Positions 8,204 through 12,318 of a DNA stretch of 64,000 nucleotides are shown in pieces (position 1 is the stretch's first letter; the number at the start of each line of letters is the position of its first letter). The stretch is from NCBI GenBank assembly GCA_048937405.1, contig JBHLNF010000015.1, positions 661-64,660 on the forward strand, read 5' to 3'. This DNA is from Promethearchaeota archaeon (GTDB lineage: Archaea; Asgardarchaeota; Lokiarchaeia; Sigyniarchaeales; SOKP01). Made by a program: the position numbers and the translations under genes. The notes beneath the pieces are model-generated. The model ran no database searches. It was not told where the DNA came from and was given only the letters and a program-made list of their open reading frames with translations.

Positions 8204-9013
8204 ATGGAAGGAATAAGAATTATAAAAAATGCAAATTTGGAGGAAAAAGATTTTATAAGACCTATTTGTATAATAGGAATGCCAGGGATAGCTGATGTTG
8301 GGAAATTTGCTTTGGATTCTCTTATTGGTCAATTAGGTGCTCAAAATTTAATAGATATTATTTTTGATGATTACCCTGCCGGAGCTATCGTAGATGATAG
8401 TCTCTTAACTGCTCCTAAAGCTGAAATCTTATATTGGAAGGATCCAAATGAACTACGAGATATACTATTAATTACTGCTGATGCCCAGAGTCTTTCACCG
8501 AAAGGGATTTACAAGATATCTAATTTCCTGACTGAAAAAATTCATCAATATGGCATAAAACTAATCATAGCTTTAGGGGCTTATCCTGTAAACACTAGAA
8601 AACTCTCCTCAAAGCTTCCTAAAATCTATCTTAGCTCAACTAATCGAGAGTTATTAGAACATTACTTAGTAGAAAATAATTGTGAGAAGATTCAGAAAGG
8701 AGTAATAATCGGAGCAAATGGTTTAATTCCAACATTAGCAAAAGCAAGGTTTAATATTGATGGTCTGGTTTTTCTCGCAGAAACAGACAATATTGCCATG
8801 ATTAATGAAGATATTACCGATCTTAAAGCTTCAATTACTCTTTTAGAAATGCTTAAAAAATCCTTTACCTTGCCAATAAAGAAGAAATATTCACTGGAGA
8901 GTATTGAAGACCTTACAAAAAATCTACAAATTAAAAGAGATCAACTAGAAAAAGATCTTGATACAATCCAGCTTGTTGATACTGATGATAAACGAAAATC
9001 ATTATATATCTGA
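8204..9013 (+). CDS. PAC2-family protein (proteasome assembly chaperone 2-like)
   Basis: 269 aa. ICIIGMPGIADVGKFALDSLI resembles the PAC2 N-terminal motif. Length and the coiled C-terminal tail fit the archaeal PAC2 family. Confidence 0.6.
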   Translation: MEGIRIIKNANLEEKDFIRPICIIGMPGIADVGKFALDSLIGQLGAQNLIDIIFDDYPAGAIVDDSLLTAPKAEILYWKDPNELRDILLITADAQSLSPKGIYKISNFLTEKIHQYGIKLIIALGAYPVNTRKLSSKLPKIYLSSTNRELLEHYLVENNCEKIQKGVIIGANGLIPTLAKARFNIDGLVFLAETDNIAMINEDITDLKASITLLEMLKKSFTLPIKKKYSLESIEDLTKNLQIKRDQLEKDLDTIQLVDTDDKRKSLYI

Positions 9014-9330: not shown

Positions 9331-10260
9331 CTATATTTTTATTTCGAATTTTAAATGATTAACTAATTCTTTATATCGATTACGAATTGTTGCTTCTGTA
9401 ACTCCCGCCGCCATTGAGATTTCTTTTTGTGTACGACGTTCTCCTTCTTGTATTGCTGCAACATATAAAGCTGCGCCTGCTAAACCTGTTGGTGCCTTTC
9501 CTGCAGTAATGCGATGTTTTTTAGCTAGGTTTAGTATTGAAGCAGCTCTATTTTGTGTTTTACCAGAAAGTTTTAATTCTGCACAAAATCGAGGAATAAA
9601 ATTTATGGGGGATGATACTTTTATGTTTAAATTTAGCTCATTTAGAATTAACCTATAACAACGTGCCACTTTTTTTTTATCAACCGAAGCAAATTCTATA
9701 AAGTCGTCTAATGTTTTTGGTATAGTATTTAATCTACAAGATAAATAAATTGAGGCAATTAACATTGCTTCAATAGATCTACCTCTAATTAAATTCTTAT
9801 TAGCCATTTTTCTATATATATGGGCTGCTGATTCTTTCAAATCTTTAGAAAGGTTTAGTTGAGAAGAAAATCTGTCTAATTCATTCATAGCATAAGCCAA
9901 ATTTCTATCAATAGATTTGTTAGTACGTGTCCTTACATGCCATTTCCTTAAACGATAAACTTCAGCTTTCATTTTAGGGCTTATTGTCTTTCCAAAGGCA
10001 TCTTTATTCTTCCAACCAATCATTGTACTCAAACCTTTATCATGAAGTGTAAGTGTTGTAGGCGCTCCCACTCTTACTTTTTTATTTGCTTCTTCTGAGG
10101 TAAAGGCACGCCATTCTGGTCCTGAATCTATAATTCTTTGACTTAAAACTAAACCACATAAATTACAAATGATCTCACCACGTGATTGATCAGAGATCAA
10201 TTCTTTGTTACCACATTCTGGGCATAAATTGAAATTTTTTTGAGACAATGAAAGATCCAA
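9331..10260 (-). CDS. tfb: Transcription initiation factor B (TFIIB homolog)
   Basis: 309 aa. Zinc ribbon CPECGNKELISDQSRGEIICNLCGLVL, B-reader/linker GPEWRAF, two cyclin repeats and C-terminal GVTEATIRNRYKEL. The only available start is TTG at 10260; an in-frame TAA lies immediately upstream. Confidence 0.9.
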   Translation of the reverse strand: MDLSLSQKNFNLCPECGNKELISDQSRGEIICNLCGLVLSQRIIDSGPEWRAFTSEEANKKVRVGAPTTLTLHDKGLSTMIGWKNKDAFGKTISPKMKAEVYRLRKWHVRTRTNKSIDRNLAYAMNELDRFSSQLNLSKDLKESAAHIYRKMANKNLIRGRSIEAMLIASIYLSCRLNTIPKTLDDFIEFASVDKKKVARCYRLILNELNLNIKVSSPINFIPRFCAELKLSGKTQNRAASILNLAKKHRITAGKAPTGLAGAALYVAAIQEGERRTQKEISMAAGVTEATIRNRYKELVNHLKFEIKI

Positions 10261-11018
10261 TTATAATAACCCTTTAAAAAATCTCTTCTTTAATTTTCAT
10301 AATTATTTTTGCACATTTAAATGTTTGCGTTTTGAGGATTTATCCGTTAATAATAAACACTGATTTGGATTTTTGAATTTTAAATAAAATTGAATAAATT
10401 TAATAAGTTCTTTCTTTCTTCTAATATAATGCGACATTATTATAGAATCTCTGGAAAATATTATTATATGTGTTTTTTTTGCTTCAAATGGTCAATAAGT
10501 GAGATAGGATTACGATTTTTCGGATATACTGATGGAAATTAAAGTTATTTTAAGTATTATTTCGATAAAAAATTATAAAAATCTTTTTTGTCGGAATGAT
10601 CCGAGATTATATGATGAAAGGAGATCAATTTAGAATATTTTCAAAAAACAAATTGAGCTATTATATTAAATAGCAAACTTTCAAATTACACAGAATATAG
10701 AATACGAATCTAAAACTTTAATATTTCAGAAAATCATATGGAGTATCAAAAAATAAGATTTTCTAAAAATTATTTTTCTAAGGTTGATCTCGCTTTAAAG
10801 ATGAGTTTAGCATAACAAATATGAAGATTTTGATCTGACTGAGTAAAAAAATACTGACCGAAAATTTTGAAAGTTTAGTGTTAAAAAAGAGAAAAAATAT
10901 GATTAAAATTATGTTATCGATAAATTTTTAATAAATTAGTATATAATTATTTTATAAGATTATGCAATGACTTTAATATTATTTTATTTATAAATCCCCA
11001 GAAGAAAGAGGAAATTAA

Positions 11019-11654
11019 ATGCCATTAGACCCGCAAACCGCTGTTTATAATTTAATGCAAGCTGATCCTCATATTATTGCTGTAGCTGTAATTAAAGGTA
11101 AAGAAATTATCTATTCAACAGATAATTGGGATATAAGTGCTGATGTTGATAGAGTAATATCAAGTTGGGTTGGTCAAAATGCTCAGTTTATAATGGTTTC
11201 AGGAGTAAAATATTCTGTACTTCAAATGGAAGCAGAAAGATTGGTTGCAATGTCTTATAAAGGTGATGGAAGCATTGTTGCAGCAAAAGATAATGAACAT
11301 AAATTAATTGCCTACTTAGATCCTGATGGTTATGCTTTAGGTGCCGCTATGGATGTTCAAAGAGCTGTAGGGACTATGAGTTCACAGGGGCCGTATATGG
11401 ACTCAAGCGCTCAAATGGGTCAATCAGGAACTCAGATGAGCGGGACTGCACCTACAGGGGCTGCTTTTTCACAAGGAGCTGGTCCAAGTATTGATTCTCA
11501 GCTTAAAGGTGAAATTCAATCTTTTTTAGACTGGGTTAAAGATAGTGAAGGATTAGCGGGTTATATTAATTATTATCTTCAACAAAATAATTCTCAAATA
11601 ATTTCTGAATTATCAAAAATATATAATGAGTTAAGGCAAATCTTTGGAGTTTAA
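11019..11654 (+). CDS. Profilin-like protein (Asgard-type) with a low-complexity and helical C-terminal extension
   Basis: 211 aa. ATG is preceded by a GAGG-containing purine tract. Residues 1-120 (..AVAVIKGKEIIYSTDNWDISADV..IMVSGVKYSVLQMEAERLVAMSY..KLIAYLDPDGYALGAAMDVQRAV) resemble my recollection of the block pattern of published Asgard profilins. Then comes an S/G/Q/M-rich segment and a helical tail. Confidence 0.65.
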   Translation: MPLDPQTAVYNLMQADPHIIAVAVIKGKEIIYSTDNWDISADVDRVISSWVGQNAQFIMVSGVKYSVLQMEAERLVAMSYKGDGSIVAAKDNEHKLIAYLDPDGYALGAAMDVQRAVGTMSSQGPYMDSSAQMGQSGTQMSGTAPTGAAFSQGAGPSIDSQLKGEIQSFLDWVKDSEGLAGYINYYLQQNNSQIISELSKIYNELRQIFGV

Positions 11655-11775: not shown

Positions 11776-12318
11776 ATGATCTTAAGAATTAGATTCTTAA
11801 TAAATCTAATAATTGTGAGATTTTTGGCTAAAAAAGATAAAAATCAGAATAAAAAGAATTCTTCAATTAAAAAGGAGATAGATAAGAGGGATGGAAACAA
11901 AAAAGACAGAAAAGATATTAAAGCAATTCCTTTGAATAAAGAACAAGAAAAAAAATTAGGATATTCAACAGATGAAGATCTGGAATTAGGGATACCAATT
12001 GTTCCCGAAGCTCCTAAGCAAAAGAATAAAATAACTTTGGATACTTTCAATTTATCCTCTGATGTATTAGAAAGAATGAAGAAGTATGAATCTCCCAATA
12101 TTAAGGTAGTATTAGTAAATTGTGAACGATGCAAAGCCATTATTCCTGTTCCCGTTCCTAAAAAAGCGGTAATAAATTCAGAATTACCAGTAGTTCCTAT
12201 TAGTTATGTTCACAGAAATCTACATAAAAAGGATCAACATTGTATAACAATTCATCTTGATCATGATTTTGATATTCGAAGACAGAGGATATCTGATGTG
12301 GTTATATCTCCAGATTAA
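11776..12318 (+). CDS. Hypothetical protein with a Lys-rich disordered N-terminus and a Cys/His-containing C-terminal domain
   Basis: 180 aa. C-terminus reads VVLVNCERCKAIIPVPVPKKAV..PISYVHRNLHKKDQHCITIHLDHDFDIRRQRI. Co-oriented 121 bp downstream of the profilin-like gene. Start uncertain. Confidence 0.4.
   Translation: MILRIRFLINLIIVRFLAKKDKNQNKKNSSIKKEIDKRDGNKKDRKDIKAIPLNKEQEKKLGYSTDEDLELGIPIVPEAPKQKNKITLDTFNLSSDVLERMKKYESPNIKVVLVNCERCKAIIPVPVPKKAVINSELPVVPISYVHRNLHKKDQHCITIHLDHDFDIRRQRISDVVISPD

What the first reader, a model, noticed from the sequence alone, without database searches (positions are those of the whole stretch)
11019..11654. Asgard-type profilin carrying a ~90-aa low-complexity and helical C-terminal extension
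The first ~120 aa resemble my recollection of the block structure of published Asgard profilins: ..A(V/I)A(V/I)I.K...I..T.NW..S.D.., ..(S/Q)G(V/I)KY.., ..LIAY(L/V).P... Those proteins are roughly 130-150 aa, whereas this ORF continues in frame. It runs through an S/G/Q/M/T-rich segment (QGPYMDSSAQMGQSGTQMSGTAPTGAAFSQGAGPS). It then enters an amphipathic helical tail (IQSFLDWVKDSEGLAGYINYYLQQNNSQIISELSKIYNELRQIFGV). A profilin with an appended disordered linker and extra domain could tether actin-monomer delivery to another partner. I am not aware of this arrangement being described.
Basis: partly seen in the sequence, partly recalled or inferred. Interest (0 to 1): 0.7.

Follow-up and report, generated by a model that had tools for sequence, protein, structure and literature searches.

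The report
Asgard profilin with conserved C-terminal helical domain
This gene from a Loki-type Asgard archaeon encodes an actin-regulating profilin joined by a floppy linker to a small, very strongly conserved three-helix domain that I found described nowhere, which suggests these relatives of eukaryotes steer profilin in a way not yet studied.

Summary
Window 11019..11654 (+) is a 211-aa ORF. Residues 1-120 are an Asgard profilin: PDB sequence hits to Heimdall and Odin profilins at E about 1e-10, and Odin profilin is the best structural match. The roughly 90-aa extension is not an artefact. Full-length relatives exist in 651 protein clusters and at least 124 species-level genomes. In the 80 loci kept, the gene order is the same, next to TFB. 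The extension has three parts: a short conserved motif (YMDxxAQ[M/L]G), a variable linker that always stays in frame (24% identity), and a 54-aa C-terminal domain. That domain is more conserved (84%) than the profilin domain (72%). Modelled alone, it gives a confident three-helix bundle (pLDDT 94). It has no Pfam, PDB-sequence or Foldseek match. The same domain sits on a second profilin paralogue. It also occurs, rarely, without a profilin on Ras-type GTPase/polyproline/zinc-ribbon, leucine-rich-repeat and an uncharacterised N-terminal-domain proteins. I read it as an autonomous docking module that acts in trans and tethers profilin-actin to a partner. The partner and the actin binding are inferred, not shown. 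I found no published description, so I rate it a new variant of a known kind.

The parts
10984..10995 (+). A/T-rich TATA-like element (ttatttataaat) about 25-35 nt upstream of the start codon; possible archaeal promoter
   Evidence: Read directly from the sequence. Inference only; not tested against a promoter model or for conservation.
11008..11011 (+). GAGG Shine-Dalgarno-like motif 7 nt upstream of the ATG
   Evidence: Read directly from the sequence. Inference only.
11019..11654 (+). Complete ORF, 211 aa plus stop: profilin with C-terminal extension
   Evidence: There are 651 homologous clusters; the best 120 are 203-219 aa with 99-100% query coverage. At least 124 species-level genomes encode a relative.
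11019..11378 (+). Profilin domain (aa 1-120)
   Evidence: PDB phmmer: Heimdall profilin 7pbh E=1.8e-10, Odin profilin 5zza E=4.6e-10. Pfam PF00235 E=1.1e-4. The AF2 model shows an N-terminal helix, seven strands and a C-terminal helix. Foldseek best hit is 5zza_P, E=6e-6, TM 0.71. Identity among 81 orthologues is 72%.
11379..11423 (+). Conserved short motif after the profilin C-terminal helix (aa 121-135, SSQGPYMDSSAQMGQ; family pattern S-S-K/Q-x-x-Y-M/L-D-x-x-A-Q-M/L/F-G)
   Evidence: Y126 and G134 are invariant in alignment A1. The segment is 51% identical among orthologues, against 24% for the rest of the linker. The motif recurs in distant members and in GTPase fusions that have lost the profilin core.
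11424..11489 (+). Variable, low-complexity, predicted-disordered linker (aa 136-157)
   Evidence: 24% identity and about 6 indel columns per pair, yet the tail stays in frame in all 80 loci. AF2 pLDDT is below 50 for aa 127-158. In more distant members it is replaced by G-rich or K-rich linkers of about 20-110 aa.
11490..11651 (+). C-terminal three-helix domain ('tail', aa 158-211; helices 160-174, 179-188, 192-209); consensus DPxLKxEIxxFLxWIKDPxGLxxYIxYYLxQNDxxxISxLAxIYxxLRxIFG(V/F)
   Evidence: 84% identity among orthologues, higher than the profilin domain. Between paralogues it is 46-56% identical against 31-41% for the profilin domain. AF2 on the domain alone with a 39-sequence alignment gives pLDDT 94 and pTM 0.68. 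It has no significant Pfam, PDB-sequence or Foldseek match. It is also found on non-profilin proteins.

Best explanation
This is a genuine, vertically inherited profilin gene of Lokiarchaeia-type Asgard archaea (Promethearchaeota). The protein has three functional pieces. (1) A profilin domain that, by homology to Odin and Heimdall profilins, binds actin monomers. (2) A short conserved motif followed by a disordered linker of free length and composition. (3) A 54-residue C-terminal domain that folds on its own as a three-helix bundle. I propose that the C-terminal domain is a docking module acting in trans. On its flexible leash it attaches profilin, and therefore profilin-actin, to a conserved partner or to another protein carrying the same domain. 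This would concentrate polymerisable actin at particular sites. That role would stand in for the polyproline-mediated recruitment that Loki and Odin profilins were reported to lack. Shown here: the ORF, profilin homology and fold, in-frame conservation, conserved gene order, the autonomous high-confidence fold of the tail, its stronger conservation than the profilin domain, and its presence on other protein types. Inferred: actin binding by this particular protein, and everything about what the tail binds.
For: Profilin identity. The extension is real and old. The best 120 of 651 clusters cover 99-100% of the query. At least 124 species-level genomes encode a relative, and in the 80 loci kept the order PAC2 / TFB(-) / profilin-tail(+) / orf180 / DUF2116 / AA-kinase is conserved. 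A 36%-identical orthologue still sits next to TFB, DUF2116 and AA-kinase. Segment conservation is tail 84% > profilin 72% > motif 51% > linker 24%. The tail is also the better-conserved part between paralogues. The tail alone folds with pLDDT 94. The tail works without a profilin in cis. It is found on Ras-GTPase + polyproline + zinc-ribbon proteins (P0129, P0291, P0292), on an LRR protein (P0168), and on P0298, whose long N-terminal region is uncharacterised (its precomputed Pfam hits PF24807/PF24796 were not looked up). In one case it lies N-terminal to a profilin domain (P0124). Linkers vary from about 20 to about 110 residues and from S/Q-rich to G-rich to K-rich, as expected for a passive tether. 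A second tail-bearing profilin paralogue exists in the same MAG. Published work reports that Loki and Odin profilins do not bind VASP polyproline (stated in PMC8410842).
Against: No partner has been identified. The flanking genes are housekeeping genes and give no functional hint. The non-profilin carriers are rare: about 10 GTPase clusters, mostly single short metagenomic contigs. Some clearly derive from an inserted profilin-tail gene whose profilin core later decayed (P0293 and P0295 keep the profilin C-helix and the motif). This weakens the argument that the tail is independently mobile. The tail is mildly acidic (net charge about -3 here, mean -1.9 across the family), which gives no clue to a ligand. 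The AF2 profilin model is only moderately confident in its centre (pLDDT about 50 for aa 41-80). Actin binding was not tested.
Confidence: 0.5

Rival explanations
1. The tail is a filament-binding 'headpiece'. It would be a functional analogue of the villin headpiece (a small helical F-actin-binding domain on a flexible linker after an actin-binding core). In that case the protein holds profilin-actin on or near Lokiactin filaments.
For: The tail is small, has three helices, sits at the C-terminal end and follows a disordered linker on an actin-binding core. Its very high conservation (84%) would fit a very conserved ligand such as Lokiactin. For Thor 1DGelX, a C-terminal extension after a gelsolin domain was likewise proposed to bind filament sides (PMC7444086). 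One fusion protein places the tail next to a gelsolin repeat (P0131).
Against: There is no match to the villin headpiece or any actin-binding family in Pfam at E<=10 for the window's tail or E<=1 for the 39 family members, and none in PDB sequences or structures. The domain is acidic and lacks the basic patch typical of filament binders. It also occurs on LRR and GTPase proteins that have no actin-binding domain.
Confidence: 0.2
2. The tail is a self-association module. Tail-tail contacts would dimerise the profilin, pair the two profilin paralogues, or join profilin to GTPase-tail proteins, giving multivalent profilin-actin carriers.
For: At least two tail-bearing profilin paralogues exist in one MAG. 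In the GTPase fusion family the same position after the polyproline stretch holds either a profilin domain (P0294, P0296) or a tail (P0129, P0291, P0292). By Rosetta-stone logic, the tail could recruit a profilin in trans. The domain carries many conserved aromatic and hydrophobic residues, which I count by eye from the invariant and nearly invariant residues listed as about 18 of 54. That may be more than a 54-residue core needs.
Against: AF2 folds a single chain into a closed bundle at pLDDT 94, with no sign of an extended coiled coil. No multimer prediction or covariation test could be run.
Confidence: 0.15
3. The tail is a cis-acting regulator. It would fold back on the profilin domain, for example on the face formed by the N- and C-terminal helices or on the actin-binding face, and so gate actin binding.
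For: The tail and the profilin domain have stayed together through deep divergence (30-40% identity). The helix-pair face of profilin and roadblock folds is a known docking site for partner helices (PMC10933270). The conserved motif directly after the profilin domain could act as a hinge.
Against: The tail is retained at about 75% identity on proteins with no profilin domain at all (P0129, P0291, P0292, P0298, P0168). Linker length is unconstrained. The full-length AF2 run returned no inter-domain (PAE) information, its pTM was only 0.50, and the tail scored lower there than when modelled alone.
Confidence: 0.1
4. The N-terminal domain is not a working profilin. It would be a roadblock/longin-like regulator of small GTPases, and the whole protein would belong to GTPase signalling rather than actin control.
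For: Foldseek also returns MK-D1 roadblock and MglB structures at E about 5e-4 to 5e-3. The closest fusion partners are Ras-family GTPases. The Pfam profilin score is just below the gathering threshold.
Against: Every significant sequence hit in the PDB is a profilin, the best being the biochemically validated Odin and Heimdall profilins. The best structural hit is Odin profilin bound to actin. Several family members carry precomputed PF00235 hits. The fusion proteins also carry polyproline tracts and, in one case, a gelsolin repeat, which are actin-system features.
Confidence: 0.05

Closest known systems
Odin profilin (PDB 5zza) and Heimdall LC3 profilin (PDB 7pbh, 6yrr)
   Same: They are the closest characterised relatives of residues 1-120 (E about 1e-10; Foldseek E=6e-6, TM 0.71). 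They share the NWD(I/L)S, VKYS and ERLVA-type blocks.
   Different: These proteins are single-domain (119-148 aa as crystallised). Heimdall profilin has a disordered N-terminal extension, not a C-terminal one (PMC8410842). Neither has the motif, linker or three-helix domain.
Loki profilin-1 and -2 (PDB 5yed, 5yee, 5zzb)
   Same: They are profilins from the same class of archaea, and they are homologous (E about 1e-4).
   Different: They are only distantly related to this protein and belong to a different paralogous group. They are 136 aa with no C-terminal domain. The protein studied here is the TFB-linked orthologue with a tail.
Villin and other headpiece-bearing gelsolin-family proteins (eukaryotes)
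   Same: The design logic is the same: an actin-binding core, a flexible linker, and a small all-helical C-terminal domain (my own knowledge of villin; this protein's architecture).
   Different: There is no detectable sequence or fold match to the headpiece. The core here is profilin, not gelsolin repeats. F-actin binding by the tail is untested.
Thor/Loki 1DGelX (gelsolin domain + linker + unknown 'domain X')
   Same: It is an Asgard actin regulator with a C-terminal extension of unknown function, predicted to be helical and proposed to add a second binding activity (PMC7444086; bioRxiv 10.1101/2025.11.30.690169).
   Different: From the report that 1DGelX migrates like actin, I infer that domain X is far larger than 54 aa. 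No 1DGelX-type protein appeared among the 49 representatives that match the tail.
Eukaryotic profilin recruitment by formin FH1 / Ena-VASP polyproline tracts under small-GTPase control
   Same: The functional problem is the same: bringing profilin-actin to a defined site. Rare relatives fuse this profilin and/or its tail to Ras-type GTPases and polyproline tracts.
   Different: In eukaryotes the link is made by profilin's own polyproline-binding face. Here a separate appended domain is proposed to make the link. No formin or VASP homology was seen.

Membership tests
Profilin (Pfam PF00235) | Significant sequence similarity to experimentally validated profilins | tested here: met
   phmmer against PDB: 7pbh E=1.8e-10, 5zza E=4.6e-10, 5yed E=1.2e-4, 5zzb E=4.2e-4. 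Apart from one chance-level kinase match at E=0.35, every hit is a profilin.
Profilin (Pfam PF00235) | Score above Pfam's curated gathering threshold | tested here: inconclusive
   The score is 22.7 bits against a cut-off of 25 (E=1.1e-4), covering profile positions 8-117 of 127. Some close and distant family members do carry precomputed PF00235 hits (P0008, P0177, P0178, P0139).
Profilin (Pfam PF00235) | Profilin fold: central antiparallel sheet with N- and C-terminal helices on one face | tested here: met
   The AF2 model has H5-15, seven strands and H106-120. The Foldseek top hit is Odin profilin 5zza_P, E=6e-6, TM 0.71, followed by many eukaryotic profilins. The central strands are only moderately confident (pLDDT about 50).
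Profilin (Pfam PF00235) | Binds actin monomers and modulates polymerisation | not testable with these tools
   This needs biochemistry. It is inferred only from homology to Odin and Heimdall profilins.
Profilin (Pfam PF00235) | Binds polyproline and phosphoinositides | not tested
   Not examined here. Published work reports no VASP-polyproline binding for Loki and Odin profilins (PMC8410842).
Profilin (Pfam PF00235) | Single-domain protein of about 120-150 aa | tested here: not met
   The protein is 211 aa, with 91 residues beyond the profilin domain, conserved across the family. This is a usual property rather than a defining one, so it does not exclude membership. It marks the protein as a variant.
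Villin headpiece (Pfam PF02209) | Sequence match to the headpiece profile | tested here: not met
   No VHP hit at E<=10 for the window's tail, and none at E<=1 for any of 39 family tails. Foldseek against PDB gave no match at all.
WH2 motif | Amphipathic helix followed by an LKKV/LKKT-type motif in an unfolded segment | tested here: not met
   The conserved L-K-x-E-(I/V) lies at the start of helix 1 of a folded bundle, with no preceding amphipathic helix. This is read from the alignment and the model.
Asgard 1DGelX 'domain X' | Homology to the C-terminal domain of Thor 1DGelX (KXH72031.1) | tested here: inconclusive
   The reference sequence could not be fetched. Among the 49 representatives that match the tail, only P0131 contains a gelsolin repeat, and its layout is GTPase-tail-gelsolin, not gelsolin-X.
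Roadblock/LC7 - longin superfamily | Sequence or best structural match to roadblock/MglB/longin proteins | tested here: not met
   There are structural hits only, and they are weaker than the profilin hits (9jq8 E=5.6e-4, 6hjm about 3e-3, against 5zza at 6e-6). There are no sequence hits.

The most novel reading that the evidence does not exclude
The three-helix tail is a dedicated docking domain of an Asgard actin-assembly network. Through tail-tail or tail-partner contacts it would couple profilin-actin to Ras-type GTPase proteins that carry polyproline tracts. That would be a simple archaeal counterpart of the eukaryotic small GTPase -> formin/WASP -> profilin-actin logic. The rare GTPase-polyproline-profilin and GTPase-polyproline-tail fusion proteins would then be 'Rosetta stone' records of that interaction.
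Probability: 0.15. Interest if true: 0.85.

Novelty: new variant of a known kind. Interest (0 to 1): 0.62.

Why it matters
Asgard profilins are central evidence that a regulated actin cytoskeleton predates eukaryotes. All the profilins whose characterisation I found are short, single-domain proteins. The protein here belongs to a widespread, syntenic profilin orthologue group found in at least 124 species-level genomes. Its most conserved part is not the profilin domain but an appended domain with no detectable relative. If that domain recruits or oligomerises profilin, it offers a concrete, testable answer to an open question: how are profilins that do not bind polyproline targeted in these cells? 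It would also define a new domain family tied to actin regulators and Ras-type GTPases in the closest archaeal relatives of eukaryotes. Both cultured Lokiarchaeia and Lokiactin reagents now exist, so the experiments are feasible.

Tried and rejected
1. Assembly artefact, lost stop or frameshift: rejected. The best 120 of 651 clusters cover 99-100% of the query. The tail is in frame in all 80 species-level loci despite linker indels, and the gene order is conserved.

2. Tail as a known domain: Pfam on the tail alone and on 39 family tails, a PDB sequence search with the single sequence and with a profile, and Foldseek against PDB and BFVD all gave nothing significant. NCBIfam gave nothing for the whole protein.

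3. Hits of the tail to giant 1,200-3,400-aa proteins with several matched stretches: rejected as spurious. They are summed weak matches to a bacterial adhesin-type repeat (DGLSGTINYQWQRNGSDI).

4. 'ProGel' as a profilin-gelsolin fusion: rejected. The name means prototypical gelsolin.

5. Tail-only small proteins (44-170 aa representatives): most that can be judged are fragments beginning at an internal Met of profilin-tail genes or of the GTPase/polyproline/zinc-ribbon fusions. No clear stand-alone tail protein was found.

6. A second copy of the tail in the 64-kb window: none found.

7. Functional clues from neighbours: the flanking genes are housekeeping (PAC2, TFB, DUF2116, amino-acid kinase, GHMP kinase) and uninformative.

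8. Taxonomic names for the distant members: cluster look-ups gave only 'Promethearchaeota/Promethearchaeati archaeon'.

9. Literature: Akil & Robinson 2018 and Ponlachantra et al. 2023 are not held and could not be checked. Searches for 'Loki profilin-3' and 'three profilins' found nothing.

10. dN/dS by segment was not attempted, because synonymous sites are likely to be saturated at 60-83% protein identity. Segment identities were used instead.

Full report
**Observation.** The window is 27% G+C, so about 8.3% of random codons are stops. A 211-codon open frame therefore has a chance probability near 1e-8. A TATA-like A/T box and a GAGG motif lie just upstream of the ATG (reading only, not tested).

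**N-terminal domain.** Residues about 10-119 match profilins.
- Pfam PF00235 scores E=1.1e-4, 22.7 bits, just under the cut-off of 25.
- phmmer against all PDB chain sequences returns only profilins with significance: Heimdall profilin 7pbh (1.8e-10), Odin profilin 5zza (4.6e-10), and Loki profilin-1/-2 5yed/5zzb (about 1e-4).
- An AF2 model built on 69 homologues has the expected layout of N-terminal helix, seven strands and C-terminal helix. Confidence is high at both ends and about 50 in the central strands.
- The best Foldseek match in the PDB is Odin profilin in complex with actin (E=6e-6, TM 0.71). Eukaryotic profilins follow, and roadblock/MglB folds score more weakly.

I conclude that this is a profilin-family domain. 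Actin binding is inferred from homology only.

**The extension is real.** A search of 5.8 billion clustered proteins found 651 clusters. The best 120 are 203-219 aa, 72-100% identical, and cover 99-100% of the query. They include proteins from 2.27-Mb and 3.34-Mb MAG chromosomes. A scan of one genome per GTDB species found 124 genomes that encode a relative. All 80 loci kept (60-83% identity) match residues 1-211. In those loci the neighbourhood is conserved: CxxC protein, PAC2, TFB on the opposite strand (78/80), the profilin gene, a 180-aa ORF (71/80), DUF2116, amino-acid kinase and GHMP kinase. A 36%-identical relative (P0145) still lies between TFB and DUF2116/amino-acid kinase. The orthologue group is therefore old.

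**Anatomy of the extension.** I aligned 81 orthologues extracted from the loci and computed all-against-all identity by segment:

| Segment | Residues | Identity |
|---|---|---|
| Profilin domain | 1-120 | 72% |
| Short motif | 121-135 | 51% |
| Linker | 136-157 | 24%, with about 6 indel columns per pair |
| C-terminal tail | 158-211 | 84%, with no indels |

- The motif (SSQGPYMDSSAQMGQ here; Y126 and G134 invariant) recurs in distant members as YMAADQQMG, YMAEDSHFG and YLDENAQLG.
- The linker is predicted disordered (pLDDT <50). In more distant relatives it is replaced by glycine-rich or lysine-rich stretches of about 20 to 110 residues.
- The tail has three helices (160-174, 179-188, 192-209). 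Modelled alone with a 39-sequence alignment spanning 33-77% identity, it gives a closed three-helix bundle at mean pLDDT 94, pTM 0.68.
- Its consensus is DPxLKxEIxxFLxWIKDPxGLxxYIxYYLxQNDxxxISxLAxIYxxLRxIFG(V/F), with the Trp and one Gly invariant.

**Is the tail a known domain?** I found no evidence that it is.
- Pfam on the tail alone: nothing better than E about 0.09.
- Pfam on each of 39 family tails: no consistent family.
- PDB sequences with the single tail and with the profile: nothing below E=0.05.
- Foldseek of the high-confidence model: no PDB match at E<=10 and nothing meaningful in BFVD.

Foldseek is weak for 50-residue helical queries, so a structural analogue cannot be excluded.

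**Where else the tail occurs.** I ran an exhaustive HMMER search of 1.84 billion representative proteins with the tail alone. It found 49 representatives.
- Five giant proteins are spurious repeat-summed matches to bacterial adhesin-like repeats.
- Most of the remainder are profilin-plus-tail proteins or fragments of them.
- These include a second paralogous family of 215-233 aa. It is about 32-35% identical overall, but 46-56% identical in the tail against 33-38% in the profilin domain.
- Both paralogues occur in the same MAG: DZ3M.111, contigs JBHLOC010000041 and 042.

A small set of proteins carries the tail in other contexts:
- Ras-family GTPase + polyproline + zinc ribbon + tail (P0129, P0291, P0292).
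- GTPase + tail + gelsolin repeat + the start of a profilin domain (P0131).
- Leucine-rich repeats + tail (P0168).
- P0298: a long N-terminal region that I did not characterise (precomputed Pfam hits PF24807/PF24796, not looked up) + polyproline + zinc ribbon + tail.
- Sister proteins with GTPase + polyproline + profilin + zinc ribbon and no tail (P0294, P0296).

On contig L082 a GTPase-zinc ribbon-profilin ORF overlaps, out of frame, an ORF that encodes coiled coil-tail-polyproline-profilin-zinc ribbon. This is probably one gene split by a frameshift.

Two caveats apply. These fusions are rare: about ten clusters, mostly single short contigs. Some of them (P0293, P0295) retain the profilin C-terminal helix and the motif in front of the tail. 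They therefore descend from an inserted profilin-tail gene whose profilin core was later lost. Their profilin and tail sequences resemble those of the 200-202-aa members of the same orthologue group (P0302, 62% identical to the window protein).

**Mechanism.** The facts to be explained are these:
- The tail folds on its own.
- It is better conserved than the actin-binding domain it is attached to.
- It hangs on a linker of arbitrary length and composition.
- It is kept at about 75% identity on proteins that have no profilin domain.
- It is nearly always at the extreme C-terminus.

Together these point to a module that acts in trans on something conserved, rather than a structural appendage or a purely cis-acting lid. 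My favoured reading (confidence about 0.5) is a docking or tethering domain that localises or concentrates profilin-actin. This would substitute for the polyproline-based recruitment that Loki and Odin profilins reportedly lack (PMC8410842).

I cannot tell which partner is involved. The candidates are:
- Lokiactin filaments, as a villin-headpiece-like analogue (0.2).
- Another tail, giving self- or hetero-association with the paralogue or with GTPase-tail proteins (0.15).
- The protein's own profilin domain, as cis-regulation (0.1). This is disfavoured because the tail exists without a profilin.

The domain's mild acidity (net charge about -3; family mean -1.9) argues weakly against binding to anionic lipids or a classical basic filament-binding surface. 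A minor rival is that the N-terminal domain is a roadblock-like GTPase regulator (0.05). Against this, all significant sequence hits are profilins.

**Comparison with what is known.** The profilin domain is a member of the Asgard profilin family and is closest to Odin and Heimdall profilins. The architecture differs from every Asgard profilin whose characterisation I found: Loki-1/-2, Odin, Heimdall and Thor are all single-domain, and some carry an N-terminal extension. The survey of 256 Asgard profilins in PMC8410842 discusses only N-terminal extensions and never a C-terminal one. Papers on Lokiarchaeum ossiferum mention three profilin-like proteins, and two (Pro1, Pro2) in a Lokiactin co-IP study, without describing a C-terminal domain. 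The nearest design analogues are villin (actin-binding core, linker, small helical headpiece) and Asgard 1DGelX (gelsolin domain plus unknown domain X, proposed to bind filament sides; PMC7444086). Neither is related by detectable sequence. I could not read Akil & Robinson 2018 or Ponlachantra et al. 2023, so prior mention there cannot be excluded.

**Verdict.** The protein is a conserved, syntenic Lokiarchaeial profilin orthologue with a bipartite extension. Its end is a new, autonomous three-helix domain, more conserved than the profilin domain and shared with a second profilin paralogue and a few GTPase/polyproline/LRR proteins. I rate it a new variant of a known kind, with interest about 0.6. 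The mechanism is open but directly testable now that Lokiarchaeia can be cultured.

Noticed in passing
window 11776..12318 (+): This 180-aa ORF lies directly downstream of the profilin gene, after a 121-nt gap. It has a lysine-rich N-terminus and a conserved C-terminal half, and no Pfam hit. It is conserved at the same position in 71 of 80 related loci, so it is a real gene of unknown function and possibly co-transcribed with the profilin gene.
   Followed up: partly
L082:2356-4231: Two ORFs overlap out of frame at an A-rich run. One encodes Ras GTPase + zinc ribbon + profilin. The other encodes coiled coil + tail + polyproline + a second profilin + zinc ribbon. This is probably one large multidomain gene split by a frameshift. 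It is a striking GTPase-polyproline-profilin combination in an Asgard metagenome contig.
   Followed up: partly
L084:6716-8666 and L085:2530-4480: The second tail-bearing profilin paralogue (P0216, 221 aa) lies directly downstream of a gene with a methyl-accepting chemotaxis signalling domain (MCPsignal) and near a multi-PAS sensor gene. The arrangement is the same on contigs from two sources, an NCBI assembly and a Logan assembly of a sequencing run. A link between sensing and actin regulation was not examined.
   Followed up: no
window 11379..11423 (aa 121-135): The short motif S-S-K/Q-x-x-Y-M/L-D-x-x-A-Q-M/L/F-G just after the profilin C-terminal helix is conserved far beyond the rest of the linker. 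It is retained in GTPase fusions that have lost the profilin core. It could be a short linear binding motif in its own right.
   Followed up: partly
L072 (DATKTW010000006.1) and protein P0322: A contig and a protein labelled 'Candidatus Nanopelagicaceae bacterium' (an actinobacterial family) carry this Asgard profilin-tail gene. Locus L072 is among the 80 related loci, 78 of which have the TFB and PAC2 neighbours; L072 was not checked individually. This is most likely a mis-binned Lokiarchaeial contig in a bacterial MAG.
   Followed up: no
proteins P0128, P0144, P0160, P0164, P0167: These giant repeat proteins (checked for P0128 and P0167) have tandem ~100-aa repeats containing DGLSGxINYQWQRNGSDI. 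They score E down to 2e-19 against the 57-aa tail, purely by summing many weak repeat matches. This is a reminder that whole-sequence E-values for short queries against repeat proteins mislead.
   Followed up: yes
window 9331..10260 (-) and 8204..9013 (+): A TFB (TFIIB) gene is transcribed divergently from the profilin gene across a 758-nt, 19% G+C spacer (measured over the 200 nt nearest the profilin start). A PAC2 proteasome-assembly-chaperone-like gene lies beyond it. This trio is conserved in 78 of 80 related genomes.
   Followed up: partly
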